Shown here one piece after another: positions 4,772 through 19,516 of a DNA stretch of 38,621 bases. The stretch is from Patescibacteria group bacterium (lineage in GTDB: Bacteria; Patescibacteriota; WWE3; UBA101185; UBA10185): NCBI GenBank assembly GCA_026004595.1, contig BPJL01000009.1, positions 1 to 38,621 on the forward strand, given 5' to 3'. The notes under the pieces are model-generated. The model was not told where the DNA came from. It saw only the letters and a program-made list of their open reading frames with translations, and ran no database searches. The number at the start of each line of letters is the position of its first letter. Position 1 is the stretch's first letter. Both the position numbers and the translations under genes were made by a program.

Positions 4772-4772
4772 T

Positions 4773-5426: not shown

Positions 5427-5767
5427 GAGACATTTTTCCAACGCCTCCAATAACCAAGATGATGTATTCGTGGGCTAAATGGGGTGGTGGTAATTTTGGG
5501 TTAGTTAAAGAATATGGTGAATGGTTTTGCCAGATTTGTGGTGAAAGACAGACTCCTGATAGCCCTTCTTATATGTTCCCAGAGGATAGCTTTAGAGTAT
5601 CGTTTATTAGAATATGTCCTATATGTAAGGCTGAAATAGAAGCTACCCAAGCCCAAACCCTTGAGGAACTAAAAGGAATGTTAGAAGATGTTAAGAGAAA
5701 AATAGTAGAAAAAGAGATAAAAGCTGAAATATTTATTGTCAATTTGAAAACCAAACTAAAGCTATAA
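5414..5767 (+). CDS. hypothetical Zn-ribbon protein
   Basis: CQICGE...CPICKAE cysteine pairs. Its 3' end carries the promoter-like cassette for the portal gene. Confidence 0.5.
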   Translation: MADVRDIFPTPPITKMMYSWAKWGGGNFGLVKEYGEWFCQICGERQTPDSPSYMFPEDSFRVSFIRICPICKAEIEATQAQTLEELKGMLEDVKRKIVEKEIKAEIFIVNLKTKLKL

Positions 5768-5779
5768 CATAATTGAGGT
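5744..5779 (+). promoter_or_regulatory. late promoter-like cassette (copy 1), ends at the portal ATG
   Basis: TTGAAA(ACC) at 5744-5749, 18-nt spacer, CATAAT at 5768-5773, TGAGGT, then ATG 5780. Confidence 0.55.
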
Positions 5780-7764
5780 ATGGACGATCTTTTACCACAA
5801 CTTTTAGAAAGATATTCTTTTTGGACCCAGGATATTCAGACTAGAATTACCCGCAAAAACGGATGGAACGATGTAATGGATGCCTATTATGGTGTTCTTC
5901 CAGAGGACTGGCCTTTCAGAATGAAAATCGTTGACCCCCGAATTAGAACCATTTTGCAGGAAAAAAACTCAAGGCTTTTAGGTAATAGAATATCGGGAAG
6001 GGTGCTGCCGAGAGAAAACGGAGATACAATAAAAGCCAGAATTCACCAAGCAATACTAGATTATCAATGGGATAAGGTTAGCTATGGCGGCTCGATGCAA
6101 CAAAAACTTTCAATGGCAGACCTTAATACAAGATTATATGGCAGCCAGTTTGCCCTTGTTTTGTGGAGAGTAGAAAAAGATGAAGAAGACAAGATTGTTT
6201 ATGAAGGAAACGATTTACAATTATTGGACATTAGGGATTGCGGAATAGACCCTGCGGCTAAAAGTATTAGGGATGCTAAATGGTTTCAGGTAAGACAATG
6301 GGTTTATCTGGAGGATTTAGAAAAGCAACTTGATAGCAAAGGCAAACCAATTTTTAGGAATATTGACATAATTAGAAAAAATCTCAAAGATAAGGTATCA
6401 GACAAAAGGAACGATTACACTCCCAGAGTCAAGCAGATTAGGGGATTGGAGGATAGGCTTGGAATGGATAGGGAATTTCCAATGATTGAGATTGTGACCG
6501 AGTATAGAAAAGACAAATGGATAACCTTTTCCCCACAACACAGCGTAGTTTTAAGAGAAATAGAAAATCCTTATAATCACGGGGATATTCCTGTTGTTCA
6601 GCTTACCTACCACAGACTGGATGATGACCCAATCGGAGAAAGTGAGGTAGAGCCAGTAATTCCTTTGTGGAAGGCTTTGCAGGCACTAGTTAGCTCTTAT
6701 ATTGAAGAAGTATTGTTAAAGATGAGACCTCCATTGAAAGTCATACGGGGGTCTGCGGCGATTGAGACCATACTTTATTCCCCAGATGCTTTATGGCTCG
6801 TTGACAGACCAGATGCTATTACAGAAGTTGTCTCAAGCGGTAATTCTATTCAATACTTCCAGACAACTTATACCTCTCTTGTATCAGCTATAAACTCGGC
6901 AATGGGTGGTATGAGTATGGGAATATCTAATATTGACCCTAACGCCAACAAAAGAACGGCGACGGAGGTGAAAGCTTCTGTCAGACAGCAGACAACGGTA
7001 GACCAGAAAAACCTTGTCGATTTGTCAGATTTTATTAAGGATTTTGTGAGGATGTGGATATCAAATAACCAACAATTCTTATTTACTCAAGAAAAATCTT
7101 ATTATGTCCAAAAGATTATTGGAGTTGAAAATTACAATGTCTTTAGGAAAGCAGGATTTGATCAGACCATAATTCCCCCAGAGGTTGACCAACAGGTGGC
7201 AGACATTATAGCTCAAAACCCAGACATTACTGATTTTGAGATAGAGCAAATCAGAGAAGCGGGGAGAGTGCCAAAATATCCTGTTATCCTTAATCCCCAA
7301 AGAGAAAAAATCCTGAAAAAATCAAGGTTGAACCGAAACTAAAAGTGTCAGAACTTGGTAATGAGGCTGAAATCTATATTCTACCAGAAGACATTGAGGG
7401 GTCTTATGATTTTATCCCTGATGTTAGGGTGCTTTCAATTACAAGAGAAGATGAGAAAATTCAAGGAAGACAATCAGCACTGCAGATGTTGACCACAAAC
7501 CAAAATGTGCTACAATTGTTATCAAATGAAGGTTATGTTCCTAAAATTAAGGAAATTTTGGAAAGCGTTCTTGAAGATGCTGGATTACAAGATGCGGACA
7601 GGTTTTTTGAAAAAATAAATGCAAATCAAGGACAAAATCAGTTATCTCAAGTCCCAACTGGAGTTTTACCTAGCAATGGAGAGGCTTCAACACCTACCGG
7701 AATGGAAAAACTACCTTCTACCCTACCTAACAGCCAAATTCCAGAACAGTTGGCTCAAGCCTGA
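5780..7764 (+). CDS. portal protein candidate (one frame break)
   Basis: About 660 aa, directly after the terminase. ORF 5780-7342 continues in ORF 7345-7764 if one A is added to the A6 run 7305-7310 (..NPQREKNPEKIKVEPKLKVSELG..). The call rests on size and synteny. The 3' end is uncertain. Confidence 0.6.
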
Positions 7765-7924
7765 AGAATTCAAAACCCTTGAAGAATTTCATAAGGCTTA
7801 TGTCGAAGAAAGAGCAAGGGCTGTTGTTTTTAAAGAGATTGTTGATTTGGTGGAAAACGCTAAAAAGAATGCACTAGCGATTAGAAGGGAAATAAAAAAT
7901 GTCAAACAAGGACTCTCAATTTAG
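7619..7924 (+). CDS. hypothetical helical protein; start uncertain, overlaps the portal tail
   Basis: Frame-2 ORF (..PEWKNYLLPYLTAKFQNSWLKPEEFKTLEEFHKAYVEERARAVVFKEIVDL..). Both frames stay open over 7619-7764. Confidence 0.35.
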   Translation: MQIKDKISYLKSQLEFYLAMERLQHLPEWKNYLLPYLTAKFQNSWLKPEEFKTLEEFHKAYVEERARAVVFKEIVDLVENAKKNALAIRREIKNVKQGLSI

Positions 7925-8126
7925 CAAGTTTTATTTTGACCAGTTTAGGGGGAAAGACGGGGAGCCTGTTGGCAAGAAAGAAGAAATTAAATTCAAGAAA
8001 TGTAGCCACAAAAATGCTAAACTGGTTGTTGATGAAAGGGGAACGAGAATACAGTGTAGTTGCGGTGTTGGGTGGAATGGAAACGCTACCCAGTTGTCAA
8101 GAATTTTGAAGGACTTGACAAGTTAG
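7899..8126 (+). CDS. hypothetical small protein
   Basis: 75-aa ATG ORF preceded by an A-rich region. Contains CSHK...CSCG. Confidence 0.45.
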   Translation: MSNKDSQFSKFYFDQFRGKDGEPVGKKEEIKFKKCSHKNAKLVVDERGTRIQCSCGVGWNGNATQLSRILKDLTS

Positions 8127-8141
8127 CTTATAAATAAAGAT
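8106..8141 (+). promoter_or_regulatory. late promoter-like cassette (weakest copy), ends at the scaffold ATG
   Basis: TTGAAG at 8106-8111, 18-nt spacer, ATAAAT at 8130-8135, AAAGAT, then ATG 8142. Same 36-nt geometry as the other copies. Confidence 0.3.
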
Positions 8142-9033
8142 ATGGCAGACGAACCTACTCCCAAAGATATAGAACTTGTTGATCAAATTCCGCCATTTGG
8201 CGAAGAACCTCAAAAAACTGTTGAAGAAACTCCCCAAGAAAAACCACAAGAGACTGAAGAAAAAATAAAAGAAGAAATCAAAGAAGAACCCTGTTGACGA
8301 AACTAAAAAAAGAACCGCTGAACAATTCAATAAATTAAAGGAACACAACCAAGAACTAAAAGAAAAGGTAAGACCAATATGAAGATGTTTTATCTTCGCT
8401 TCAACCCAAAATTCCCGAAAATCCTCTTGAGGGTATAGAATTGCCGCCTATTTCCCACAAATTCCTCCTGAACAGGTTGTCTATAATCCGCCACCCCGCC
8501 AGTCAATTTCCTCATCTGGGGGAAAAAGGAGTAAAGGACATCTTTGAGCAGTTGGTTGACGATGAGGGTGCGGTGGATAGGGATTTGCTTCTTGAGAACC
8601 CTGAGAAAGCAAGAAGAAAGAGCGAGAATAGCTGAACAACAAAGCGAAAGAAGCAGAAGAAGCGGTCAGACGAGCTGAGAGGAAGTTTGACGATTTTCAA
8701 AGAAAAGCCATAATGAGAGAAGTTCACGCTAAATACCCCCAGATTGACCCCGAAAGTGACCAGTTTAATGAAACTATGTGGGTAGCCGTGAGGAATGAAA
8801 TAATTGGACAATGGAGTGAAACGGGGGTGGAAGACCCGATGGCTGCAGCTGACAAGTGGTATAAAATCTTATACGGAAAGAAAGATAAAGAGGATGTTGA
8901 AGAAAAAAAGGCTCAAATCAATGCGACAATTAGTCAGGCTCCAAGATCTCCAACCACTAAAGACCATTCCCAAAAACTACGAACTGGAACTCTTCAAGAC
9001 CAAGCAGAAGTACTAGAAGAGATGGGCTATTGA
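8142..9033 (+). CDS. scaffolding protein candidate (at least 3 frame breaks)
   Basis: Acidic, helical, low-complexity protein (MADEPTPKDIELVDQ..EEKIKEEIKEE.., ..AERKFDDFQRKAIMREVHAKYPQIDPESDQFNETMW..) lying between portal and capsid genes. Pieced together from several frames. Confidence 0.5.
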
Positions 9034-9065
9034 AAACCCCAAAGTTTTTTCTTCACAATTAAACT
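9030..9065 (+). promoter_or_regulatory. late promoter-like cassette (capsid copy, followed by a long leader)
   Basis: TTGAAA(ACC) at 9030-9035, 18-nt spacer, CACAAT at 9054-9059, TAAACT. No ATG follows; a leader of about 100 nt follows instead. Confidence 0.5.
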
Positions 9066-9166
9066 GCATAGTAGTCTGATGCTCCGACTATAAACTGAGC
9101 AAATTCTTACCGAATCTATGCAACCCTACCGACGGGTTAGAAACGGTAAGAAAGGAGGTGAGCAAA
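9066..9166 (+). promoter_or_regulatory. structured 5' leader of the capsid gene with strong SD
   Basis: Hairpins TAGTC (9072-9076)/GACTA (9086-9090), CTTACCG (9106-9112)/CGGTAAG (9144-9150), and nested AACCC (9122-9126)/GGGTT (9134-9138). SD AGGAGGTG at 9153-9160. Confidence 0.4.
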
Positions 9167-10097
9167 ATGGCTTGGGGTAAAACAACTTATCAATCACCAA
9201 ATGAGGCTAGAGAATCTGTCTTAAGCATTATGAGAGACATCTCTCCTAATGAAGACAATTACTTTGTCTCTAACCTTGCAGTTGGTGCCCCTGCGATGAA
9301 CACTCTTCACCAGTGGAATATCTTCCACGAATCAAGAGTTTCATCTGTTACGGCCTGTAGTTGAGGGTGCTGATCCTAGCTATCCCGATCTGCAAGCTGA
9401 ACAAAGGGCAACCAACTACACCGTATTGGTGGATGCTCCTGTTAGACTTTCAAGCACTAAGGCTTCTATCGCTTCTGTTACTGGCGAAAAGCCGTTAGCG
9501 GTTGAAAAAGCTCGTGCCTTGAGAAGGCTAAAGAACAAAATGGAGTATCTTCTCATCAATGGAACAGCAGCAGCTGGTGATACTGGTACTGCTAGAGGTA
9601 TGGCGGGTATTGATGCGTTTATTACATCTAATGTAACCGCTAGAGCCTCTGGGACATCCTTTACAGAACAAGAGTTGAACGACATCATTCAGCAATCTTG
9701 GGACGCTGTAGGAAATTCCTATGTGGCTGATTTGATTGTTGCTCCTGTTGTTATTAAGAGGAGAATAGCTAGCTTTGGAACTAATTTGACCAGAACCATT
9801 CCCGCAGCTGATAAGAGGCTGACTAATGAGGTTAGGGTCTACGATTCCGAAGTTGGCCAGACAGTCAAAGTCATTGCTCACAAGGATGTTAGATCAGCTG
9901 CAGGAACATTGACTGTTCTTGCTATCCGTGAGGACTTGAGCCAGATGGCATTCTTAACAGGCGGAAATGAACCGCACTGGGAAGAATTCTCAAAGACTGG
10001 ATACTCCGTTAAGGGAGCTTATGTAACCGAATTTACCTACGTGGACCTTAACGAAAAGGCTAACGTAAAGAGGACAGGTTACTCAACAGGTCTGTAA
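9167..10097 (+). CDS. major capsid protein (one frame break)
   Basis: RESVLSIMRDISPNEDNYF..NTLHQW then VVEGADPSY..LAVEKARALRRLKNKMEYLLINGT. This matches the pattern I associate with the DUF5309/SU10-like capsid family. Strong SD, terminator downstream. The break (frame 2 to 0) lies within 9300-9364, most likely near 9350-9360. Confidence 0.7.
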
Positions 10098-10120
10098 TTT
10101 AGACTTGTTGTTCTTTTAGG

Positions 10121-10157
10121 CTGGGGGGAAGTGGTAAATCCCCCCAGTTGCTTTTTT
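10121..10157 (+). terminator. rho-independent terminator after the capsid gene
   Basis: CTGGGGGGA (10121-10129) pairs perfectly with TCCCCCCAG (10139-10147). 9-nt loop, then TTGCTTTTTT. Confidence 0.8.
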
Positions 10158-10158
10158 G

Positions 10159-10167
10159 TGATATAAT
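10159..10167 (+). promoter_or_regulatory. extended -10 promoter (TGATATAAT) heading the glycosylation island
   Basis: TG-a-TATAAT at 10159-10167, immediately after the terminator. ATG 10176 lies 8 nt downstream and has no SD. Confidence 0.4.
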
Positions 10168-10175
10168 AAAAATTG

Positions 10176-10556
10176 ATGGAAGAATACGAAATTGTGCCCC
10201 CTCATTATGTAGTATCTTCTAAGATGATAATAGATTTATGGGAGAAACTTGGTAAACCACAAAATCCATTTAGCAATTCAGGAAGAAAAGTTTTAGATTT
10301 TATTATTGAAGTTTGGAAAGAACTTTACCCCAATGATTATGAAAACTGGCTTGCTATTAGAAGCGATTATAAAAAATCAGAGCTTTCTATCGAGGAACAG
10401 GTAAGAAAAGAAACTGGAAGAAGTCTTGCTTCATATCCGATGTTTGTTTATAAAGTAATGAAGGTTGTGTTCCCAAACTTTGATCCAGCGGAAAGAAAGA
10501 ATTGTATGAGAATGGCAAAACTTTATCCTATTTTTAGGTTTGCTAATAAGCTATGA
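10176..10556 (+). CDS. hypothetical protein (first gene of the island)
   Basis: ORF 10173-10556; ATG at 10176. No motif recognised. Confidence 0.5.
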   Translation: MEEYEIVPPHYVVSSKMIIDLWEKLGKPQNPFSNSGRKVLDFIIEVWKELYPNDYENWLAIRSDYKKSELSIEEQVRKETGRSLASYPMFVYKVMKVVFPNFDPAERKNCMRMAKLYPIFRFANKL

Positions 10557-11759
10557 AAATAGCGTTTTGGTGTCATTACAAAAGGAGATAGCGAACTACC
10601 TTCCTTAAAACGACTTGTTAGAAGCATTAAGGATTATGTTGATGGAATTTTTATTTACCGCAAACCACGAGCATACGGAAACCAAAAAGTGGTGCGAGGA
10701 AAACAATCTAAACTTTTCTTATCTTAAATGGAACGATAATTTTTCCGAACAAAGGAACTTCAATTTCAACCAAGCTAAGGGTTATGATTTCGTGCTTTGG
10801 GGCGGATTCTGATGATGTTATTGTTGGCGGCGAAAAAATAAGAGACATAGCCTCAAGAGCCAAAAAGATGGGAATGGATTGTGTGTTCTTTGATTATTGG
10901 TATGGCTGCGACTTTGATGGAGAGCCGTCTTTAGAAACCTTAAAGAATGTTGACATTATTCAGCAAAGAGAAAGGCTTATAGATCCGCAGGTTTATGTTT
11001 GGAAGAAAAGAATCCACGAAACGCCTGTTCCTGTTGAAAACTACGAACCTAAATACACTTATGCTTCTTATAAAGATAATGGGGTTGTTTGGGTTCATTT
11101 AGGGGCTGATAGAAATATGCCGATGGGAAGATCAGCTCAAAAGAATGGATAGAAACCAACGACTTCTTGAAATGGAACTTAAAGAAGAAAGAGAGAAAGG
11201 GGAGGCTGACCCCAGAACCCTGCTTTATCTTATGAAGATTTATGCTGAAAGAAAAGACGAAAACCTTTGGAAAGAGTGTATAAAGATGGGTTATGAGTAT
11301 TTGGAGAAAAGCGGTTGGGACGCTGAAAGGGCTTTAGCTTGCAGTCTAATGGCAAGGTGTATGGGAAATTTAGGAAATCACTTGGAGGCACGTGAGTTTT
11401 TTGGGTAAAGCAGTTTTAGAGTATCCTTACTCGTCGCTTCTTTTACTTTTATCTGTCTAAAGCTTGTTTTAATCTTGGTAAATATCGGGAGATGGAGCAT
11501 TGGCTTAAGGTGGGGCCTTAAGATTGAAGATGAAAAAGTATCAAGCCAAACTTCAAATGAACTGGAAAAGAAAATCATATCAGCTGAGCTTGCTTTAAGA
11601 CTTTATTTTTATGTTAAAAGAGACATTAGAAAGGCTATGAAAGCGGCTAGGTTGCTTTATCAAGCTTTGCCTAACGAAGAAAACAAAGAAATGCTTGATA
11701 GCGTCTCTGCACTTTATAACCTTGATATTGCTTCTGAACACATTCACAAAATTTGTTGA
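10553..11759 (+). CDS. GT-A (family 2-like) glycosyltransferase with TPR-like helical C-terminal region (multiple frame breaks)
   Basis: Reconstructed ..VVITKGDSELPSLKRLVRSIKDYVDGIFI..WNDNFSEQRNFNFNQAKGYDFVLWADSDDV.. with a DxD-type DSDD. This is followed by TPR-like LLYLMKIYAERKDENLWKECIKMGYEYLEKSGW.. ATG 10553 overlaps the previous stop. The 3' boundary is uncertain and it may be fused to the next domain. Confidence 0.55.
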
Positions 11760-12888
11760 ATATCTGGAATTGACAGAAAAGGAAAATCTTATTCCTAATT
11801 TTATTCAAATCTTTACCTCCTGAAAATCAAAGCCCTGCCTTTTACTTGGCATTATAAAAACAAATATAGTAGTAGAACTTGGGGAGAAGATGAAATTTGT
11901 TATTATGCCTCCTTTGGGTCCGATCATTACGAGAAGTGGGGTCCTGAAAGCTTAAAAAAAGGAATTGGGGGGTCGGAAACTGCGGTAATTAAGCTTTCTG
12001 AAGAATGGGCTAAAATGGGGTGGAAGGTTACAGTTTATGCCGATTGTGTAGCTGAAAAGGTTGTTAATGGGGTTAGGTGGTTGCCTTATAAGATGTTTAA
12101 TCCTAGAGATAATTTTAATATTTTTATTCAATGGAGATCGTCTCATTTAGCGGGTAAAATCAAGGCTAGGAAGTTTTTGGTTGATTTACACGATGTATTT
12201 TCTCCTAAAGCTATTAAATGGGATAATGTAGATTATGTAATGGTTAAAAGCCAAGCTCATAGAAACTTGGCTAAAAATATCAAAGATGGAAAGTTTAAAA
12301 ATCATCTCAAACGGTATCTAGACATCATAGACTTTTTTGGGGGTCAAGTTATGACCGGGGATTGCAGTATCTTTTGTTTATGTGGTCTGATATTAAAAAA
12401 GCATATCCTGATGCTGAACTCCATATTTGTTATGGCTGGCAGACTTTTGACAAAATCAATGCAGGCAACCCTGAAAGAATGGAGTGGAAAAGAATGATGG
12501 AGACCTTAATGCAACAAGAAGGGATTTATCATTATGGCAGGTTAGGCAAGGAAGATTTGGCAATTGTGAGAAGGTCTTGTGGAATACTTGCGTATTCTAC
12601 TGACTTTTTCGAGATAAACTGTATAACTGCTCTTGACGCCTGCAACGATGGTCTTGTGCCAGTAACTATTGATTACGGAGCCTTAAATGAAACCGCTAAA
12701 CCCGGAATATTGATTAAGGGTGATATTAGAAAAGAAGAAACCACAAAAAAAGTATTTAGCAGAACTTTTGTCTTTAATGGGTGATAAAAAAAAGATGGAA
12801 AAGGTTGTCTCGTGAATGTCAGAAACACGCTGTTAAATATCAATGGAGTAATATAGCCAAACAATGGGATAGTGTTTTTAGAGAACCA
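11760..12888 (+). CDS. GT-B (GT4/group 1-like) glycosyltransferase segment (multiple frame breaks)
   Basis: KKGIGGSETAVIKLSEEWAKMGWKVTVYAD (GGSE N-terminal motif) and FFEINCITALDACNDGLVPV (E-x7-E-type region). The C-terminal tail ..KYQWSNIAKQWDSVF runs without a stop into the next GT2 domain. Confidence 0.55.
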
Positions 12889-13834
12889 GTTAAAGATATA
12901 AAGGTAACAGTTTATACACCGACTATTAGGGAAGGTTGGTGGAACATAATGTCTGATAATCTTTCAAAACAAACTTATAAAAACTTTGAATGGATTATCG
13001 TTGACGATTATCGGGAAGATAGAACACAAATAGCTCAAAAATACGCCCAAAAATATAACCTTGATATTAAATACATTCGTGGGGATAAGGCTTTGGGAAA
13101 ACACAATCGCAGGCTGGGGTCTTGTAAGAGCAAAATAATATTGCTTGGAAAAATGCTAATGGCGAATTGATTGTGTTTTTGCAAGACTTTGTTTTAATTC
13201 CTGAAAATGGTATTGAAAATCTTGTGGATTTATATAGACACAATAAAGACGCTTTGATAGCACCTGTTGATGTCTATTATTTTGCTGCAAAAGCAGATAA
13301 AACAAACAAAGAAGACTGGTGGAATGGAAAGACTGATATTTTATTGGAGGAAGATTGGAGAAATGCAAGGGTTAGGTTTGGTGGAATTAGAGAAAGTGAT
13401 AATCCTTTTGACTGGGAGGCTAATTATGGAGCAATACCGAAGCATATTTTAGATGAACTAAATGGATTTTGGGAGTTTATTGACGACGGGGCTGGGGTAT
13501 GATAATACTGAAATTTGTTTTAGAGCAATAGAGCTTGGATACAGGCTTTTGATAGATGATAGCAATATAGCAAAATGCATAAACATTTGGGGAGAGGTTG
13601 GAGGGACTTTCGCAAAATATTTTAAGCAGAGAAAGAATGCTAAATCCACCACGGTATAAGTATTTGGTAGAGGAAACAAAGAAAGGAACACTTCCTGTTG
13701 TCAGAGATGAACAATTAGATAAAAAGATTAAACTTGATTTTGAGGTTCCAAAAGATATTAAAGATGAAGATTGTGCTGAATGGATTAGTAAACATACGGA
13801 TGAGATAGTAAGGAGGTGGAGAGAATGCCGTTGA
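12889..13834 (+). CDS. GT-A (family 2-like) glycosyltransferase segment (multiple frame breaks)
   Basis: KVTVYTPTIREGWWNIMSDNLSKQTYKNFEWIIVDD (classic GT2 N-terminus), then ..GELIVFLQDFVLIPENGIENL.. It lies in the same ORF (12781-13170) as the GT4 tail, so the two are probably fused. Confidence 0.55.
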
Positions 13835-14268
13835 TAGTTATAACGATTGGCACTTTTGATTTACTGCATACTGGACACCTGCGATTATTCAAAAAATGCA
13901 GGAAAATAGCTGGGGATAGTGGTGTTGTTGTTGTGGGTTTAAATACTGATGAGTTTGTCGCAAAGTTTAAAGGTAAAAGACCAATTCTTTCTTATAAGGA
14001 AAGGGAAGATTTAATTATGGAAACAGGATTGGTTGATAAAATTTATCCTAATTCACAGCCAGATGGGACGATTAAGGATGTTATTAAAAAATCAAAACCA
14101 GATATAATAGTTGTGGGTTCAGATTGGGCTAGGAAAGATTATCTTGCACAAATAGGGTTGGATTGGGATTATTTGGATAAGAATAAAATCTGGCTTTGTT
14201 ATGTAAATTACGAGTGGTCTATATCAACTACCGAACTCAAAAGAAGACTAAATGAGAATTCTTTTTAA
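13825..14268 (+). CDS. cytidylyltransferase, TagD-like (glycerol-3-phosphate cytidylyltransferase family)
   Basis: IGTFDLLHTGHLRLF (HxGH), ..NTDEF.., ..VGSDW.., ..WSISTTELKRRL (RTxGISTT-like). The whole protein aligns by eye with B. subtilis TagD. SD AGGAGGTGG precedes ATG 13825. The gene is intact. Confidence 0.75.
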   Translation: MPLIVITIGTFDLLHTGHLRLFKKCRKIAGDSGVVVVGLNTDEFVAKFKGKRPILSYKEREDLIMETGLVDKIYPNSQPDGTIKDVIKKSKPDIIVVGSDWARKDYLAQIGLDWDYLDKNKIWLCYVNYEWSISTTELKRRLNENSF

Positions 14269-14278
14269 AATTATATCA

Positions 14279-15387
14279 ATGAAAGTTATAGAATACAAGC
14301 TATAATCCTAACAAAACACACCTTGCCAAACTTGAATTTACTCTTGAACAAGCTCGTCTTTTGTATAATGAAGCGTTAAAACAAAGGATAACTAGCTGGA
14401 AAGAAAATCAAAAAAGATTAAATTATTATGACCAAACCAAGTTTTTTAAGAGTAAATATCCTATTTCGGCAATGCTTACTCAATGTGTATTAAAAAGACT
14501 AGATACTACCTATCAAAGATTTTTCAAAAGAATTAATAACTTTCCAAGATTTAAGGTCAAAAAATAGGTTTCGTAGTATTGATATACGCCAGTGGGGATT
14601 AAATGCCTCATTGAAAGATGGAAAACTAAGATATGACAAAATGTTAATTAGAACATCTAACCATAGAGAGCTAGAGGGCACACCAAAAACGGGGAGGATT
14701 GTAAAAAGAGCTGATGGTTGGTATCTGCAAGTAGTTTGTGATGTTGGTGCTAAAAAAACCTAAAGCAAAAATAAAAACTGCTATTGGACTAGATATGGGA
14801 TTAAAATATCTAGTAGCCGACAGTGAGGGTAACATTATACAAGCACCTAAAATGTTTAGAAAAACAGAAGCTAAATTAGCTAAACAACAAAAAGTGTTAA
14901 GCAGACGAGTTAAAGGTAGCAATAGTTGGATGAAAGCAAAGGAAGCTGTTGCAAAAAACACATCTAAAAATATCAAGACAGCGAAAAGATTTTCTCCATA
15001 AGATTTCCTATAAGTATGCTCAATATGATTTAATTGCGGTTGAAAAATTAAACATTAAAGGAATGTTAAAAAAATCATCATTTAGCGAAAAGTATTTCTG
15101 ACGCAAGTTGGAATATGCTTCTACGGCTAATACGCTACAAAGCTGCGAATGCTGGTAGCTATTTTGTAGAAGTAAATCCAAAATACACAAGTCAGAAATG
15201 TAGCGGTTGTGGTGCGATTATTCAAAAAATCGCTCAGTGTCAGGACACATATTTGTCTGAATGTTCTCTGATAATAGATAGAGACCACAACGCTTCGTTA
15301 AATATTTTAAGGGCAGGAATTGCCCTTGGTGGAGAGATGGGATTGCCCATCTCGTTGAAACCAGAAGCCACTAAGTCTTTAGCTTAG
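14279..15387 (+). CDS. tnpB: TnpB (OrfB) RNA-guided nuclease family protein (at least 5 frame breaks)
   Basis: MKVIEYKL..NPNKTHLAKLEFTLEQARLLYNEAL.., FPRFKVKK. RuvC motifs IGLDMG, IAVEKLNIKGM and DRDHNASLNIL. Zn finger CSGCG. RKDFLHKISYKYA is restored by a shift at the A6 run 14953-14958. Confidence 0.8.
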
Positions 15388-15480
15388 TGGTAGTTCACCA
15401 GAAGACAGAATAATAGGTGAAGAGCTAGGGCCCTAGCTTTTAGCTTCAAGAAAAAAACTAGCCCCTAGCTTTTTGAAGTT
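15340..15480 (+). ncRNA. candidate omega-RNA / right-end region of the tnpB element
   Basis: Perfect 8-bp hairpin CCACTAAG (15368-15375)/CTTAGTGG (15383-15390) spans the tnpB stop. 16-nt palindrome AGCTAGGGCCCTAGCT at 15423-15438. Imperfect hairpin CTTCAAGAAAAAAACTAG-CCC-CTAGCTTTTTGAAG at about 15444-15478. The boundaries are guesses. Confidence 0.35.
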
Positions 15481-15506
15481 TTATTAGGATTTCACCATAC
15501 TTGTCA

Positions 15507-16116
15507 ATGCACCCAAATCCGTTGGGTAGAGATAAAGATGTAATAATAGATAGGTGTCTTAATTCTTTTTTAGAGGCAAATGATTCTAAATTTCCTATAA
15601 CCTTTGTCGTTTGACGGTCTTAATGATAAATGGATAGCAAGATTGAAAAAGCTTGGAGATGTTGTTTTTTCTTCTCACGGAAATGTTGAGACATTTCATA
15701 AACAACTTGATTTGGCGTGTGAGACAAAAGACGAAAAAGTTTTGTTTTGTGAAGATGATTATTTATGGAGACCAAATACAATTTCTTTATTGGATAGAGC
15801 ATTAGACAAATTCCAAATTGTTTCTCCTTATGACCACCCCGGACATTATAGAGAAGAAAGATTTAATTATCCTAAAAAAATGGTTGAATTAGATGGGGTT
15901 GTATATAGAGAAGCTCCGTCTAACACTTTGACTTTTGCTTGTAGAACGAATATTATTAAAGAGAATTTATTGGTTATTAAATCTTTTGGAATAAGAGACC
16001 ATGAATTATTTACGGAGTTGCGTAAAAGAGGATACGAAATGTTTGTGCCAGTATATAGTTTTGCAACTCACTTGGTTGAAGGATTGTTAGCACCTAATGT
16101 TGATTGGAAATTATGA
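15507..16116 (+). CDS. putative GT-A fold glycosyltransferase (one frame break; N-terminus possibly clipped)
   Basis: ..HPNPLGRDKDVIIDRCLNSFLEAN..KVLFCEDDYLWRPNT..IVSPYDHPGHY.. with an EDD acidic motif. The frame is open back to TGA 15474-15476 (SFIRISPYLS) with no earlier ATG. The break lies near 15600. Confidence 0.45.
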
Positions 16117-16672
16117 AAATCAGCCTAGTCATTCCGCATTACGAGGTTAATCTTGAAAAAAGAGAGCTACTGCTTCGTTGCTTGTCTTCAGTTGCTGGTC
16201 AGTATGATGAGCTTATTATCATTGCAGAGAAAAGATTTAATTTAGCTTCAAAAATAAACGACGGTTTAAGAAAAACAAGCGGGGAATTTATTATTGTTTC
16301 AAATGACGATATTAAACTTATAAAAGGAACTTTGTCTGATTTGTGCGATGAAAATTGTTGTTACAACCCCTACGGTAGTCGGTTCGTTAGATAAACTTTT
16401 TCACGGACATATGTGGTGTATGCCGAGAAAGATCTTTAACGAAGTTGGCTTGATGTATGAGGGTTATAACGGATTTTTACTTTGATGATAGTGATTATTG
16501 GATGATGATTGAAAGTAAAGGCTTTAATGTGGTTAAAAAGAAAGATGTTGTAATTCTTCACGAACACCCAGCTTCTACCCTAAAACATTTAGTCAAAGAG
16601 GGACAGCAAGACGAAAATAAACAAATCTTTATCTCCAGATGGGGCGTTGATTCCTTAAAAAAAGTTTTGTAA
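16113..16672 (+). CDS. GT-A (family 2-like) glycosyltransferase (two frame breaks)
   Basis: MKISLVIPHYEVNLEKRELLLRCLSSV..GEFIIVSNDDIKL (DxD-type NDD), ..HGHMWCMPRKIFNEVG.., ..FYFDDSDYWMM.. ATG 16113 overlaps the previous stop (ATGA). Confidence 0.6.
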
Positions 16673-16674
16673 GT

Positions 16675-16710
16675 TTGAAAACCAAATAAACCTTCTTTCA
16701 TAATTAGGGT
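16675..16710 (+). promoter_or_regulatory. late promoter-like cassette, ends at ATG 16711
   Basis: TTGAAA(ACC) at 16675-16680, 18-nt spacer, CATAAT at 16699-16704, TAGGGT, then ATG. Confidence 0.55.
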
Positions 16711-17325
16711 ATGCAAACCCTAGAAGATATACTTAAAGCATCGGCTTCCACACTTGATTTGGATACCTCTTTGCCCACTGGCAATGAGTTGACAAACTCG
16801 TATCAACTTTGCCAACCAAGCAATTTGGGACGCCTTAAGTGTGGGTTTTGTTCCTGAACTTAAAAGTGAATATCTTGTATATGCTACAGGGGCCACTGTT
16901 CCTTTACCTACTAATTTTTATGCGATGTCTTCAAATCCGAGAATTTATAGTAATGGCTGGCTTGAATATCCAGAAATCGAAGCAGAAGAAAAATATACTC
17001 TTGATAGTGGTGATAGATTTTCTTATGTTTTAGGAACGCCACAAGCCAAAAATCTTATTCTCAACTCACCAGTTGAAGGAACTTTGTCTTTGATATACCA
17101 AAAGATACCCTCAAGGCTTTGCTACTTTAACTGATGTTTGTGAACTACCCGACCCGATGTATGTGATCAGAAAGATTGAAGCTTATGTTCTTTACTCAAG
17201 AGGGTGATGACAGATTCCAAATCGCTCAAGCGGAGGCGGAAAAGTATCTCCTTAATATGATGGGAACTTCGTATAAAAGCTCTGGCGGAAAGACGAGATT
17301 TGTTAGTAGCAAGTTTAGACCTTAA
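16711..17325 (+). CDS. head-tail adaptor/connector-like structural protein (about 3 frame breaks)
   Basis: About 200 aa pieced from three frames (MQTLEDILKASASTLDLD.., ..LANQAIWDALSVGFVPELKSEY.., ..FQIAQAEAEKYLLNMMG..). The call rests on position and size only. Confidence 0.35.
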
Positions 17326-17339
17326 TAAAGTTGTATGAT

Positions 17340-19282
17340 ATGGCAATTTTCAACGCAAAAGCTCCAGCTTATAAGAAGAGACCTGAAGTAATATCAGAGT
17401 GGGCAACCTTTAGAAAGGGTCTTAACCTCATTTTGCGACCCACTGAGATTTCAAACGAGGAGATGTCGGAAGCCTACAATATTATGCTTATTGGATCTGG
17501 CGTCCCGACTGGAAGGTGGGGGACAGAAGTCTTTTTTGATACCGGCGGAACTTATGTTAATGGATTGGGTTTCTACAGAAGCAGTGATCTAACCATTGAT
17601 GATGTTTTAGCTTTATCCAATACTGGGTATTTTGGTAAAGAAAAACAACTCTTCATATACAATCATTAGTGGTAATTCTTGGCCGACTTCTACCAATATT
17701 CATACTGAACAGCTTGGGAATAGAACTTATATTGTCTCTCCTGATGTTGCTTTTACTGAATATGATGGAACTGATTTAAGCGTGTTTGCAACCATATCTC
17801 CTCCTACTGGAGTATCAGCTACCAACTTTAGTGGTGCAACAGGACCTGAAAAGAGTGTCGTATAGGATAGTTGCTATTGGACCTAATGGGGGGCAAACCA
17901 CGCCGTCTGCCAATTATGTGCTTGAAAATGTTCCTGTTGATCTTTCAAAGACGCAAATTCACGTTTTTTGGACCGCTCCGTCGGCTGCAACTTTGGGTGG
18001 ATTTGAGATTTATAGAGGAAGGGAAGGAGACGAAACATTTTCTTGCTTCAACTAGTGCTGGAGTTACTAAATATGTTGACAATGGAGAACCTGCAAGTGA
18101 ATCAATACTTGCCTCCTTTAACTAATACTACTGGTGGCGTGAAAGCAAGATGTATTGCTAAATATAAGGATAGACTTTTAGTTGTTCCTGAAGATGATCC
18201 TACTAAACTTATGATTTCTGCAAGATACCCTTATCATACCAGATTTAACGCCCTTGATGGTGGCGGATATATTTATATTGATCCCGATAGCGGAGGATCA
18301 AATCGTGGGGGTTGAGGTGCAGCCGATTGCTGATAGGATTGTTGTTTATAAGACAAAATCAAGCTACTTGGTTCAATTGGATACCGTGAGTTTTGGAAAT
18401 TATACCCTTCTTGATCCGCAATATGCTCCAATCTCAACTGCTGTTGGTTGTTCTTCGCAAGATACGATAGCAGTAGTTGAAAATGATTTGTTCTATTTTG
18501 GAAGGGACGGGATTTATGTTACTGGTTATGAACCCAATTTCTTAAACATTATTAGAACTAATGAAGTCTCGTTTAGGGTTAAGCCATATCTTGATCTTTT
18601 ATCTCAAGATGACTTTGATACTGCCTGTGCGGTGTATTTTGATAAAAAATATATTCTTTCATTCCCTCTAAGAAAGGAGATGTTGGTTTATGACCGCTCA
18701 CGGGGTTGCTTTGTTGGAATTTGGAGACTTCCTTTTGGGATAAGATATATGAAAAAATATGTTGATATTGATGGAAATGAAAAGCTCATTTTGGGAACTG
18801 ATGACGGAAAAGTTTATAACTTTAATGCTTCAATAAATTCTGATAACGGAGAGATTATTGAAAAAAGGCTTAAAACCAATAAAACATCTTTTGGGGATTG
18901 GACGACAATGAACACAGTTGGTTTCTTTTACTTCTTGTTTAGAAATATAGTTGGAACTACCAATGTTACTATTACTCTTGAGGATAGAGAAGGAATTACA
19001 TCGGCTATTAAGACTTTTACTATTACAGGAGCTGAACAGGCTGGAAAGACAGGATATGGGATTGATCCTTATGGGACGGCTGAATATGGACTTAGTAATT
19101 ATTATGATGTTTCTATCGCTTCTGATGAGATTATGAGATGGGGAACAGCCTTTAAGACTGGGAAGCTTATGCAGGTTGAAGTGTCTTCAACTGAAAGTAA
19201 TTCTAATTTTGAATTGCTTAAGATTGCAGTAACGGCTAAAAAACACTCAAGAGGAACTTTGTCTTCTTCCTTGAGGGTATAG
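17340..19282 (+). CDS. large tail structural protein (nozzle / tail-tubular-like; FN3-like segment plus beta-rich C-terminus; 5 frame breaks)
   Basis: Six consecutive ORF fragments, each shifted +1 (frames 0,1,2,0,1,2). YRIVAIGPNGGQTTPS..VFWTAPSAATLGGFEIYRG looks FN3-like. The C-terminal 340 aa are beta-rich. The call rests on position. Confidence 0.4.
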
Positions 19283-19318: not shown

Positions 19319-19516
19319 ATGAGAAAAATGAAGCCAAAAGGAAAAAGAGGATTGGCAGCAGTTAAGAGGCTGGGAAGAACTTATAAGACTGGCGGATTTG
19401 CAAAGATTGCTGCTAAAGCCGCTAAAAAGTATGGTTCAAAAACTATTGGTAAAAAAGTAGCCGGGGCGATTTATCAAAAAATGGTTAGAAAATATCAAGA
19501 AAGGAGAAAAAAATAA
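19319..19516 (+). CDS. very basic 65-aa protein (Lys/Arg/Ala/Gly-rich)
   Basis: MRKMKPKGKRGLAAVKRLGRTYKTGGFAKIAAKAAKKYGSKTIGKK..RKYQERRKK. Roughly a third of residues are K or R. It sits among virion genes. Confidence 0.6.
   Translation: MRKMKPKGKRGLAAVKRLGRTYKTGGFAKIAAKAAKKYGSKTIGKKVAGAIYQKMVRKYQERRKK

What the first reader, a model, noticed from the sequence alone, without database searches (positions are those of the whole stretch)
10121..16710. Self-contained glycosylation island (5 GT domains plus a TagD-like cytidylyltransferase) between the capsid gene and the tail genes
Directly after the capsid-gene terminator (10121-10157) and an extended -10 element (10159-10167) lies about 6.5 kb that has nothing to do with virion assembly.
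- It contains GT2-TPR, GT4 and GT2, which are apparently fused or tightly coupled.
- It contains an intact TagD-like CDP-alcohol-forming cytidylyltransferase (HxGH plus ISTT motifs), a TnpB element, and two more GT-A genes.
- It ends 2 nt before the next late promoter cassette (16675).

The terminator-promoter bracket gives it a moron-like layout as an independent transcription unit. From memory, phage GTs placed inside the structural module have been linked to virion (capsid/tail) glycosylation in some mycobacteriophages. A cytidylyltransferase plus GT-A/GT-B set is the minimal toolkit for a glycerol-phosphate-containing, teichoic-acid-like glycan.

The candidates are therefore a glycerophosphorylated glycan on the virion, or remodelling of host wall polymers for superinfection exclusion. 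Either would be unusual for a genome of this size. The island is also the most frame-broken part of the window, while the tagD-like gene is intact.
Basis: partly seen in the sequence, partly recalled or inferred. Interest (0 to 1): 0.7.

Follow-up and report, generated by a model that had tools for sequence, protein, structure and literature searches.

The report
Phage glycosylation module beside the capsid gene
Between its capsid and tail-adaptor genes this uncultivated ~39-kb phage carries a sugar-attaching enzyme set whose lead enzyme resembles bacterial enzymes that glycosylate proteins; related phages keep the same core but swap the accessory genes, which suggests they sugar-coat their own particles with strain-specific glycans.

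Summary
Window 10173-16672 lies between an SU10-type capsid gene and an SU10-type adaptor gene. It encodes five glycosyltransferase (GT) domains, a small HxGH/ISTT nucleotidyltransferase (CT) and a TnpB. A terminator plus extended -10 sits upstream and a conserved promoter sits downstream.

- It is not a moron. A core trio (~140-aa protein; GT2-TPR-GT4 N-half; GT4 C-half-GT2) follows the capsid gene in every related contig that covered this position, 14 in total. Only the genes after the trio vary.
- The frame breaks are not island-specific. They run from 7295 to 18295 and also hit the portal, scaffold, capsid, adaptor and nozzle genes. Nearly all are +1-nt insertions, with no in-frame stops, so they are most likely sequencing artefacts.
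- "TagD-like" holds only at superfamily level.

New evidence: the lead GT matches the Listeria flagellin O-GlcNAc transferase GmaR and the glycocin S-glycosyltransferases SunS/ThuS. No island protein has a clear membrane segment or matched a lipid-carrier family.

Best explanation (about 0.5, inferred): cytoplasmic glycosylation of a phage structural protein, diversified by swappable cassettes. Main rival: remodelling of host wall polymers. Substrate, glycan and host are unknown.

The parts
10121..10157 (+). Intrinsic-terminator-like hairpin and T-run after the capsid gene
   Evidence: The sequence was read. An equivalent GC hairpin plus T-run follows the MCP stop codon in L002, L003, L005, L006, L007, L008, L009 and L012.
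10159..10167 (+). Extended -10 element TGaTATAAT, the island promoter, 5-8 nt before the first start codon
   Evidence: Relatives have TTGACA-N17-TATACT/TACCAT (L006, L003) or TGcTATAAT (L005) at the same place, each 5-8 nt before the ATG.
10173..10556 (+). Conserved ~140-aa protein of unknown function; first gene of the core trio; intact
   Evidence: It has an orthologue directly after the MCP gene in 8 of the 8 genomes compared. No Pfam, PHROG or PDB match.
10553..12318 (+). GT2 (GmaR/SunS-like) + TPR + N-terminal half of a GT4 (GT-B fold); about 585 aa; 11 +1-nt frame breaks
   Evidence: Frame-aware alignment to the L003 586-aa orthologue gives 345 identities. The family profile matches PDB GmaR 22ao at E 3.6e-13 and SunS at 2.9e-5. 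An AlphaFold2 model of orthologue P0001 has pLDDT 90.7. Foldseek places ThuS/SunS at E 1e-15 and OGT/SPY at 1e-7. D85, D87 and D88 are invariant.
12320..13834 (+). C-terminal half of the GT4 (Glycos_transf_1) fused to a GT2 domain; about 500 aa; 7 +1-nt frame breaks; no canonical start codon at the orthologous position
   Evidence: PF00534 29.9 bits, PF00535 50.1 bits. The L003 and L002 orthologues overlap the upstream gene by ATGA.
13816..14268 (+). HxGH/ISTT nucleotidyltransferase (cytidylyl-/adenylyl-transferase superfamily); intact
   Evidence: PF01467 at 57 bits. NCBIfam rfaE_dom_II 70.6 bits and TagD 62.3 bits, both below their cutoffs. PDB matches: ECT 3elb and TagD 2b7l/1coz. phrog_7878 at E 1e-29. 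It is 79% identical to the L003 and L002 proteins.
14279..15387 (+). TnpB (IS200/IS605-type RNA-guided nuclease gene); 5-6 +1-nt frame breaks; window-specific insertion. Hairpins in the 3' flank reach about 15480.
   Evidence: Pfam OrfB_IS605 and Cas12f1 TNB. Frame-aware alignment to the Brochothrix phage A9 transposase shows the D/E/D residues present. It is absent from L002, L003, L006 and L009.
15501..16116 (+). ~204-aa GT-A-fold protein with invariant EDD motif; one +1-nt frame break near 15609
   Evidence: 128 homologues of about 210 aa. E95, D96 and D97 are invariant. The AlphaFold2 model has pLDDT 96.9. Foldseek matches TarP, SpsA, KdsB and ppGalNAcT at E 1e-6 with TM 0.55-0.62. Orthologues occur in L005, L008, L009, L014 and L016-L018.
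16104..16672 (+). Small (~190 aa) GT2 glycosyltransferase; 2 +1-nt frame breaks; co-occurs with the nucleotidyltransferase
   Evidence: PF00535 at 23.5 bits for the window copy and 28.8-29.0 bits for the L009 and L006 orthologues. The CT and this GT occur together in the window, L002, L003, L006 and L009.
16675..16704 (+). Promoter cassette TTGAAAACCAAA...CATAAT, 6 nt before the adaptor ATG (16711); marks the downstream edge of the island
   Evidence: A second copy lies at 5744-5773, 6 nt before the portal ATG. TTGAAAACC...TATAAT...ATG is conserved before the adaptor gene in L002, L003, L006 and L008.

Best explanation
The island is a lineage-conserved, cytoplasmic protein-glycosylation module of the phage. 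It most likely decorates a virion structural protein: the capsid protein, or another head or tail protein.

**Proposed mechanism (all steps inferred)**
1. A GmaR/SunS-type GT2 domain is held on its protein substrate by the adjoining TPR array and attaches the first sugar to a side chain.
2. The GT4, assembled from the C-terminus of the first polypeptide and the N-terminus of the second, and the second GT2 then extend the glycan.
3. A swappable cassette downstream finishes or diversifies it.
   - In this window the cassette is a CTP/ATP-dependent nucleotidyltransferase, which activates a phosphorylated small alcohol or sugar (glycerol-3-phosphate is the most economical guess), plus two small GT-A enzymes.
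   - In other relatives the cassette is an epimerase/dehydratase plus a DegT aminotransferase (amino-deoxy sugars), or GT2s with methyltransferases.
4. The unit is transcribed from its own sigma-70-like promoter, placed just after the capsid-gene terminator.

The frame breaks are sequencing artefacts, so the genes are probably intact in the real phage.

**Shown:** gene content, folds, homologies, conservation and layout.
**Inferred:** the acceptor, the glycan, the order of steps and the benefit to the phage.
For: - **Position and conservation.** MCP, ~140-aa gene, ~590-aa gene and ~460-510-aa gene lie in that order in the window and in L002-L009. The trio follows the MCP gene in L014, L017, L018 and L019 and in the distant podovirus ctKR88 (L012). 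Wherever the adaptor is in range, it follows the island.
- **Family size.** The ~590-aa family has more than 580 hits, the listed ones on contigs of up to ~43 kb. The portal family has about 750.
- **Lead enzyme.** The profile of its N-terminal domain matches the GmaR GT domain (22ao, E 3.6e-13) and SunS. Foldseek of the model (pLDDT 90.7) gives ThuS/SunS at E 1e-15 over about 400 residues covering GT-A plus the TPR-like region, then SPY and OGT. GmaR is a GT + TPR protein that puts GlcNAc on flagellin (PMC9638930).
- **Solubility.** No island protein reaches a clear transmembrane hydrophobicity score. No flippase, polymerase or polyprenyl-phosphate GT family was hit.
- **Variable cassettes behind a fixed core.** This is the pattern of a surface-exposed, diversifying glycan.
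- **Precedent.** Mycobacteriophages glycosylate capsid and tail-tube proteins with their own GTs (Freeman 2023, as cited in PMC12363180). Chlorovirus PBCV-1 uses soluble multi-domain GTs such as A064R for its capsid protein (PMC9614988).
- **Frame breaks look artefactual.** About 45 events were found and all but 2-3 are +1-nt insertions. 60% lie within 6 nt of a homopolymer of 4 or more, against 26% for random positions. There are no in-frame stops. Portal, scaffold, MCP, adaptor and nozzle genes are equally affected.
Against: - No acceptor has been identified. The MCP has no Ser/Thr-rich tail.
- TPR domains also act as oligomerisation scaffolds in capsule-polymerase multienzymes, for example A. 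pleuropneumoniae Cps3D (8qoy), which appeared among the Foldseek hits. TPR alone therefore does not prove a protein substrate.
- The GT-A-fold hits for the 204-aa protein include wall-teichoic-acid GTs (TarP, RmlT).
- The homologous nucleotidyltransferase in Streptomyces phages sits next to GTs in a DNA-metabolism region, not a structural one.
- The island promoter is of a different class from the portal and adaptor promoters, so its timing may differ.
- The host is unknown and nothing has been tested experimentally.
Confidence: 0.5

Rival explanations
1. The enzymes remodel host cell-envelope glycopolymers. They act on the cytoplasmic face on a wall-teichoic-acid-like or other polymer of the infected cell. 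This would block adsorption of competing or progeny phages (superinfection exclusion, or avoidance of cell debris), as the prophage enzyme TarP does in S. aureus.
For: - The 204-aa protein's best fold matches include TarP and RmlT, both GT2 enzymes acting on wall teichoic acid. RmlT and TarP also appear among the hits of the ~590-aa model.
- A TagD-like enzyme would make CDP-glycerol, a teichoic-acid precursor.
- Soluble GTs are sufficient for this chemistry.
- The island has its own sigma-70-type promoter, distinct from the portal and adaptor cassette.
Against: - The fold matches are generic GT-A (TM about 0.55).
- The lead GT2 is closest to protein and peptide GTs.
- No integrase or lysogeny module turned up among the window ORFs that were screened, so long-term exclusion has less obvious value.
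- The module is fixed between the capsid and adaptor genes across a whole clade, whereas seroconversion genes are usually accessory and peripheral.
- No TagB/TagF or LicD-type transferase was found.
Confidence: 0.22
2. The module synthesises a free or primer-bound polysaccharide or teichoic-acid-like polymer. It would be a TPR-scaffolded multienzyme polymerase of the kind that makes group 2 capsules, rather than a system that decorates a protein.
For: - The architecture GT + TPR + GT-B resembles TPR-containing capsule-polymerase multienzymes. 8qoy appears among the Foldseek hits at E 1e-6.
- A nucleotidyltransferase that could supply a CDP-activated alcohol phosphate is present.
Against: - No TagF-like domain, export machinery or lipid-primer enzymes were found.
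- 8qoy is a weak, partial hit (TMq 0.18). It ranks well below ThuS/SunS and is not among the sequence-profile hits, which GmaR leads.
Confidence: 0.1
3. The module glycosylates phage DNA (base hypermodification) to evade restriction.
For: - Phage GTs are known to modify hydroxymethylated bases; such papers surfaced.
- The homologous nucleotidyltransferase plus GT pair in Streptomyces phages lies among DNA-metabolism genes.
Against: - No hydroxymethylase, TET/5mYOX-type dioxygenase or C5-methyltransferase was detected. The only DNA methyltransferase is of the N6/N4 type.
- The lead GT resembles protein GTs and carries a TPR array.
- The module sits in the virion module.
Confidence: 0.05
4. The island is a decaying relic: its GT genes really are disrupted and do nothing in this phage.
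For: About 27 frame breaks lie within 10553-16672 as the sequence stands.
Against: - The same kind and density of breaks disrupt essential genes: portal C-terminus, scaffold, MCP, adaptor and nozzle.
- Nearly all breaks are +1-nt insertions enriched at homopolymers. There are no in-frame stop codons, and amino-acid identity to relatives is undiminished at 50-60%.
- Orthologues in all relatives are intact.
Confidence: 0.05

Closest known systems
Listeria monocytogenes GmaR (flagellin O-GlcNAc transferase; GT2 domain + TPR)
   Same: It has an N-terminal GT2 domain of about 200 aa followed directly by a TPR array, and it is a soluble cytoplasmic enzyme with a protein acceptor. It is the best sequence-profile match among solved structures (22ao, E 3.6e-13, profile positions 3-215). 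Its domain order and function are described in PMC9638930.
   Different: GmaR continues into linker and anti-repressor domains. The phage protein instead continues into half of a GT4. The acceptor here is unknown and no flagellar context exists. Similarity is at the remote-profile level only.
Glycocin S-glycosyltransferases SunS (SPbeta prophage) and ThuS
   Same: These are the best structural matches to the ~590-aa model over GT-A plus the helical repeat region (Foldseek E 1e-15 to 1e-13, TM to target 0.54-0.59). SunS is also a sequence-profile hit. They are peptide-directed GT2 enzymes, and SunS is prophage-borne.
   Different: They glycosylate a small secreted bacteriocin precursor on Cys. 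No glycocin precursor, leader-peptidase transporter or thiol-disulfide genes are present here. The adjacent ~140-aa protein is not glycocin-like.
Mycobacteriophage virion glycosylation (Che8, Corndog, Myrna; Freeman et al. 2023)
   Same: Phage-encoded GTs decorate capsid and tail-tube proteins with glycans (PMC12363180 and PMC11256854 citing Freeman 2023). This is the same kind of system as the one proposed here.
   Different: The enzymes are not detectably related: tblastn of the ~590-aa protein against 50,697 phage records found no actinophage. The virus type differs (a podovirus with SU10-type capsid). The module here is larger, holds a fixed place between the MCP and adaptor genes, and carries donor-synthesis cassettes. 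Glycosylation here is only inferred.
Chlorovirus PBCV-1 capsid glycosylation machinery (e.g. A064R)
   Same: Virus-encoded, soluble, multi-domain transferases build a capsid-protein glycan in the cytoplasm, including methyltransferase steps. Differences in these enzymes give antigenic variants (PMC9614988).
   Different: It is a eukaryotic giant virus making N-linked glycans. The genes are scattered, not a compact module in the structural operon, and no homology to the window's enzymes was shown.
TagD (glycerol-3-phosphate cytidylyltransferase), HldC/RfaE domain II and ECT
   Same: The window protein is of similar size to TagD, has the HxGH and ISTT signature motifs and a K-x-K in the loop that aligns with KHK of S. 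aureus TagD, and matches PF01467.
   Different: It falls far below both equivalog cutoffs (62 bits against 165 for TagD; 71 bits against 181 for RfaE domain II). The R-T of the RTEGISTT motif is not conserved (YEWSISTT). There is an insertion of about 20 residues before the ISTT motif. The substrate is therefore unassigned.

Membership tests
GT2 protein glycosyltransferases of the GmaR/SunS type | GT-A fold N-terminal domain with an acidic DxD-type motif | tested here: met
   The AlphaFold2 model of orthologue P0001 has pLDDT 90.7. D85, D87 and D88 are invariant in 59 sequences, and the window has ADSDD. PF00535 is precomputed on many members.
GT2 protein glycosyltransferases of the GmaR/SunS type | Significant sequence or structure similarity to GmaR, SunS or ThuS, with a helical-repeat (TPR) region following the GT domain | tested here: met
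   hmmsearch against PDB gives GmaR at E 3.6e-13 and SunS at 2.9e-5, with TPR hits at profile positions 260-340. Foldseek gives ThuS/SunS at E about 1e-15.
GT2 protein glycosyltransferases of the GmaR/SunS type | A protein or peptide is the acceptor | not testable with these tools
   This needs co-expression with candidate virion proteins and mass spectrometry.
GT4 (GT-B fold, Glyco_transf_4 + Glycos_transf_1) | Both Rossmann-like halves are present | tested here: met
   The N-half is at residues 468-536 of the first protein (PF13439, 19 bits, below cutoff). The C-half is at residues 1-153 of the second (PF00534, 29.9 bits, above cutoff). Both halves are contiguous in the 761-aa protein of ctKR88 and in a Gottesmanbacteria contig.
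GT4 (GT-B fold, Glyco_transf_4 + Glycos_transf_1) | The two halves lie on a single polypeptide | tested here: not met
   The halves are split at the interdomain region into two ORFs in the window, in L002-L009 and in the MAG-binned relatives that span the junction. In several the ORFs overlap by ATGA. It works like a GT-B but as a two-chain enzyme; whether the chains associate is untested.
TagD (glycerol-3-phosphate cytidylyltransferase, TIGR01518) | Score at or above the NCBIfam equivalog cutoff (165.4 bits) | tested here: not met
   62.3 bits for the window protein and 79.6 bits for the L003 orthologue. rfaE_dom_II scores slightly higher (70.6 and 84.4 bits) but is also below its cutoff of 181.5.
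TagD (glycerol-3-phosphate cytidylyltransferase, TIGR01518) | HxGH and RTxGISTT nucleotide-binding motifs | tested here: inconclusive
   HTGH and ISTT are present, but the R-T preceding ISTT is replaced (YEWSISTT).
TagD (glycerol-3-phosphate cytidylyltransferase, TIGR01518) | Forms CDP-glycerol from CTP and glycerol-3-phosphate | not testable with these tools
   This needs an enzyme assay with a panel of phosphorylated alcohols and sugars and of NTPs.
Cytidylyltransferase-like superfamily (PF01467 / TIGR00125) | Score above the domain cutoffs | tested here: met
   PF01467 at 57.3 bits (cutoff 21) and TIGR00125 at 51.7 bits (cutoff 27.7).
Moron (accessory, independently transcribed insert) | Own promoter and/or terminator | tested here: met
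   A terminator plus extended -10 lies upstream and is conserved in relatives. This is sequence-level evidence only; no transcript data are available.
Moron (accessory, independently transcribed insert) | Variable presence among related phages | tested here: not met
   The core trio is present in every relative examined at this position. Only the distal cassette varies.
TnpB (IS200/IS605-associated RuvC nuclease) | OrfB_IS605 and zinc-ribbon/TNB domains with the RuvC D-E-D residues | tested here: met
   PF01385 at 41 bits and PF07282 at 64.6 bits. D (IGLDMG), E (AVEKLN) and D (IDRDHNAS) are seen in the frame-corrected alignment.
TnpB (IS200/IS605-associated RuvC nuclease) | A complete mobile element with left and right ends and an omega RNA | tested here: inconclusive
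   Only 10 nt separate the upstream stop codon from the TnpB start. Hairpins lie at 15368-15480. There is no Rfam hit.

The most novel reading that the evidence does not exclude
A large, globally distributed clade of ~40-kb uncultivated podoviruses with SU10-type capsids obligatorily glycosylate their virions. The initiator is a GmaR/SunS-type, TPR-guided protein glycosyltransferase encoded between the capsid and adaptor genes. Strains exchange downstream cassettes (a CDP/ADP-activated phospho-substituent, amino-deoxy sugars, methylated sugars), producing 'virion serotypes' in the way O-antigen loci diversify bacterial surfaces. This window would be the variant carrying a phosphodiester-linked substituent, possibly glycerol phosphate.
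Probability: 0.4. Interest if true: 0.8.

Novelty: new variant of a known kind. Interest (0 to 1): 0.6.

Why it matters
Outside giant viruses, virus-encoded glycosylation of virions has been shown experimentally only in a few mycobacteriophages. If this module does the same, several things follow.

- Virion glycosylation would be a core, ancient trait of an abundant environmental phage lineage. The module takes up 14-20% of a ~39-kb genome.
- It would use enzymes unrelated to the actinophage ones.
- It would have a built-in diversification mechanism.

That would bear on phage particle stability, adsorption and decoy avoidance, and recognition by predators or immune systems. It would also add compact soluble protein-glycosylation systems to the glyco-engineering toolbox, including a naturally split GT-B enzyme.

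For annotation practice, the case shows that a run of +1-nt frameshifts confined to one 11-kb tract should not be read as pseudogenisation.

Tried and rejected
- **DNA-level search of the island and of 1-25000 against 50,697 phage records.** Only a 114-nt TnpB match to Brochothrix phage A9 was found. There is no close cultured relative.
- **Pfam on raw three-frame translations.** It found only the CT, TnpB and pieces of one GT2. Frame correction against orthologues was needed.
- **~140-aa protein.** No Pfam, NCBIfam, PHROG or convincing PDB match; weak histone H2B hits at E 0.002 or worse were dismissed.
- **204-aa protein.** Pfam (13.5 bits) and a profile search against PDB sequences failed. 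Only structure prediction plus Foldseek placed it in the GT-A fold.
- **CT subfamily.** NCBIfam, PDB and PHROG give conflicting nearest neighbours (RfaE domain II, ECT/TagD, "heptose adenylyltransferase"), so I did not assign a substrate.
- **Host inference.** MAG labels of relatives are heterogeneous: CPR3, Patescibacteria, Saccharibacteria, Iainarchaeum, Micrarchaeota, Gallionella and Gammaproteobacteria. This probably reflects binning noise, so the CPR host idea is kept only as a lead.
- **RNA genes.** No tRNA or Rfam family was found in the window.
- **Pairing of the CT with a GT in Streptomyces phages.** Their neighbouring GTs are not detectably homologous to the window's small GT-A proteins.
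- **Literature.** Freeman et al. 2023 could not be opened and is cited only through papers that quote it.
- **Tool failure.** One script call failed without output and was repeated without RNA folding.

Full report
**What the window is.** The 38,621-base window is a whole contig: its own proteins are recorded with a longest contig of 38621. All long ORFs are on the + strand. It encodes a small terminase, a large terminase split into two genes, a portal, an SU10-type major capsid protein (MCP), an SU10-type adaptor, a CHAP endolysin and recombination nucleases. No cultured phage resembles it at the DNA level. The nearest portal in 5.8 billion proteins is 62% identical.

**Checking the observation.**
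- After the MCP stop codon there is a hairpin CTGGGGGG-N10-CCCCCCAG with a T-run (10122-10157).
- TGaTATAAT follows at 10159-10167, and the first start codon comes 5-8 nt later.
- The island ends with a stop codon at 16670-16672.
- TTGAAAACCAAA-N-CATAAT lies at 16675-16704, and the adaptor ATG follows after 6 nt.
- The same cassette, with an identical TTGAAAACCAAA, precedes the portal ATG at 5744-5773.

Raw three-frame Pfam scans recovered only the cytidylyltransferase-like gene, TnpB and fragments of one GT2. I therefore looked for intact orthologues.

**Relatives and frame correction.** IMG/VR contigs L002 and L003 carry a 79%-identical nucleotidyltransferase and are collinear with the window from the MCP through the tail genes, with uninterrupted ORFs. 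I aligned their proteins to the window DNA with a frameshift-aware dynamic programme. Frame breaks per gene were:

| Gene | Frame breaks |
|---|---|
| GT2-TPR gene | 11 |
| Second GT gene | 7 |
| ~190-aa GT2 | 2 |
| 204-aa gene | 1 |
| TnpB | 5-6 |
| Portal C-terminus | 1 |
| Scaffold gene | 6 |
| MCP | 1 |
| Adaptor | 3-4 |
| 646-aa nozzle-like gene (first half) | 5 |

- All but two or three events are single-base insertions.
- None is an in-frame stop inside a conserved segment.
- 60% lie within 6 nt of a homopolymer of 4 or more, against 26% of random positions.
- I found no sign of frame breaks outside 7295-18295. A 1,037-aa ORF there is intact, and the two-gene terminase layout is shared with relative L009.
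- Amino-acid identity to relatives inside the broken genes is the usual 50-60%.

This is the signature of uncorrected sequencing error in one 11-kb tract. It is not decay, and it is not specific to the island. The intact state of the 453-nt nucleotidyltransferase gene is within chance.

**Anatomy of the island (frame-corrected).**
1. 10173-10556: a conserved, helical ~140-aa protein with no detectable family.
2. 10553-12318: about 585 aa. The N-terminal GT-A domain has an invariant D-x-D-D. TPR repeats follow, then the N-terminal Rossmann half of a GT4.
3. ~12320-13834: the C-terminal GT4 half (PF00534) fused to a GT2 domain (PF00535, 50 bits).
4. 13816-14268: an HxGH/ISTT nucleotidyltransferase.
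5. 14279-15387: TnpB, present only in the window.
6. 15501-16116: a 204-aa protein. Its family has 128 members and an invariant EDD. It folds with pLDDT 96.9 into a GT-A/nucleotide-diphospho-sugar-transferase fold, with matches to TarP, SpsA, KdsB and ppGalNAcTs at E about 1e-6 and TM 0.55-0.62.
7. 16104-16672: a ~190-aa GT2.

The GT4 is split at its interdomain region in every member of the window's clade that spans the junction, often with an ATGA overlap. In the distant podovirus ctKR88 (MW202524) the same domains form one 761-aa GT2-TPR-GT4 protein followed by a separate GT2. The gene boundary has therefore moved, not the domain order.

In the window no canonical start codon lies at the orthologous start of the second gene. 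Given the error-ridden sequence, I leave this open.

**What kind of glycosyltransferase leads the module.**
- A profile of 59 family members searched against PDB sequences gives the GT domain of Listeria GmaR (22ao, E 3.6e-13) as the only strong non-TPR hit, followed by SunS.
- Foldseek of the AlphaFold2 model (pLDDT 90.7) is topped by the glycocin S-glycosyltransferases ThuS and SunS (E 1e-15 to 1e-13, about 400 aligned columns covering GT-A plus helical repeats). The TPR-GT-B protein glycosyltransferases SPY and OGT follow.
- GmaR is a GT-TPR protein that adds GlcNAc to flagellin, and its TPR is proposed to recognise the protein substrate (PMC9638930).

The closest characterised relatives therefore act on proteins or peptides in the cytoplasm.

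No island protein in the window or in seven relatives has a convincing transmembrane segment. No flippase, polymerase or polyprenyl-phosphate transferase family was hit.

**Conservation and variation.** The order MCP, ~140-aa, ~590-aa, ~460-510-aa is found in:
- the window and L002-L009;
- MAG-binned contigs L014, L017, L018 and L019;
- fragments L013, L015 and L016, which hold parts of it in the same order;
- ctKR88, in its fused form.

The ~590-aa family has more than 580 hits, a number similar to that of the portal family.

What follows the trio differs between contigs.

| Cassette after the core trio | Contigs |
|---|---|
| Nucleotidyltransferase + ~190-aa GT2 | window, L002, L003, L006, L009; L004 and L015 are cut off within the nucleotidyltransferase |
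| Epimerase/dehydratase + DegT aminotransferase + 204-aa GT-A | L005, L016, L017, L018 |
| GT2s with SAM methyltransferases and an RGP-like protein | L007 (L013 and L008 carry parts of this set) |

A fixed core with exchangeable donor-synthesis and tailoring cassettes is how surface glycans usually diversify. The island is thus a core module of the lineage, not a moron, although it does appear to be its own transcription unit. A terminator-like hairpin plus a sigma-70-like promoter abutting the start codon is conserved after the MCP gene in relatives. This promoter is of a different type from the TTGAAAACC cassette used before the portal and adaptor genes.

**The nucleotidyltransferase.**
- It belongs to PF01467/TIGR00125.
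- It misses both relevant equivalog cutoffs by a wide margin: RfaE domain II 70.6 of 181.5 bits, and TagD 62.3 of 165.4 bits.
- Against solved structures it is nearest to human ethanolamine-phosphate cytidylyltransferase and to TagD of S. aureus and B. subtilis, and further from HldC.
- PHROGs files it with "heptose adenylyltransferase" proteins.
- HTGH, a K-x-K loop and ISTT are present, but the R-T before ISTT is not.
- About 43%-identical homologues sit next to GTs in Streptomyces phages, there among DNA-metabolism genes.

On grounds of metabolic economy I regard CDP-glycerol formation as the single most likely activity: the substrate is universally available and only one enzyme is needed. 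The evidence does not establish it. No TagB/TagF-type transferase is present to use the product.

**Explanations weighed.**
- **Best (about 0.5):** a cytoplasmic protein-glycosylation system aimed at a virion protein. This rests on the GmaR/SunS/ThuS affinity of the lead enzyme, its TPR, the solubility of all components, the fixed position in the morphogenesis module and the cassette variation. Precedents exist in mycobacteriophages and chloroviruses.
- **Host wall-polymer remodelling (about 0.22):** this remains possible because soluble GT2 enzymes such as TarP do exactly that, and because TPRs can be mere scaffolds.
- **Free-polymer synthesis (about 0.1), DNA glycosylation (about 0.05) and a dead relic (about 0.05):** each has specific evidence against it.
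- **Candidate acceptors, not tested:** the MCP, the adjacent ~140-aa protein, and the 397-aa protein at 19518-20711, whose N-terminal part carries TGQPT-type repeats.

**Novelty and verdict.** Phage-encoded virion glycosylation is a known kind of system. However, the enzymes, the split GT-B, the fixed place between the capsid and adaptor genes, the donor-synthesis cassettes and the breadth of the uncultivated clade do not appear in the literature I could search. I rate it a new variant of a known kind, with interest 0.6. The function is inferred, and the host is unresolved (MAG labels conflict).

Noticed in passing
window 7295-18295: All detected frame breaks of the contig (about 45) fall in this one 11-kb tract. 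Nearly all are +1-nt insertions enriched at short homopolymers, and the rest of the contig reads cleanly. This looks like a locally unpolished stretch of a long-read or hybrid assembly.
   Followed up: yes
window 5744-5773 and 16675-16704; L002, L003, L006, L008 upstream of the adaptor gene: A promoter cassette TTGAAAACC(AAA)-N-(T/C)ATAAT ends 6-8 nt before the ATG of the portal and adaptor genes and is conserved across relatives. The island promoter also abuts its start codon. This implies leaderless or near-leaderless late mRNAs, which may be a clue to the host's translation system.
   Followed up: partly
window 14279-15480: The TnpB gene starts only 10 nt after the nucleotidyltransferase stop codon, so there is no room for a normal left end. 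The RuvC D/E/D residues are present, and hairpins at 15368-15480 may be the omega-RNA/right-end region. Its only DNA-level relative is the transposase of Brochothrix phage A9. It is absent from all relatives at this site.
   Followed up: partly
L003 1058-2845: In this relative the major capsid gene is interrupted. A 435-aa ORF holds the MCP N-half plus an HNH endonuclease domain, and a 156-aa ORF holds the MCP C-half. This suggests a homing-endonuclease, intron or intein-type insertion in an essential capsid gene.
   Followed up: no
window 19518-20711 (DNA repeats near 19764-19828): The 397-aa protein after the nozzle-like gene has a run of TGQPT/GGQPT repeats (residues ~74-108). Its orthologues in L003 and L002 also have a G/S/T/P-rich N-terminal region. 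It is a possible O-glycosylation acceptor or flexible linker.
   Followed up: partly
window 3612-5426: The large terminase is encoded as two separate genes, matching the 325-aa and 214-aa genes of relative L009. In the window an extra 113-aa ORF (4430-4771) lies between them. This is not a frameshift artefact.
   Followed up: partly
window 19319-19516: A 65-aa, extremely basic (Lys/Arg/Ala-rich) ORF lies between the nozzle-like gene and the 397-aa gene. It could be an internal DNA-binding or ejection protein.
   Followed up: no
L021 6001-7053 (Candidatus Gottesmanbacteria, 93-kb contig) and MAG labels of L013-L019: A cellular CPR genome holds a contiguous GT4 that is 36-45% identical to the two halves of the phage's split GT4. 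Several phage relatives are binned in CPR/Patescibacteria MAGs, but others are binned in DPANN archaea, Gallionella and Gammaproteobacteria. The host remains unresolved.
   Followed up: partly
window 12290-12330: At the junction of the two large GT genes the window reads GGTATCTAGACATCAT where L003 reads GGAGTATGAGACATCAT. The downstream gene therefore has no ATG/GTG/TTG at the orthologous start, although the following residues (SRHH...SSYDRG) look conserved with the L003 N-terminus. This is either a sequence error or unusual coupling or re-initiation.
   Followed up: no
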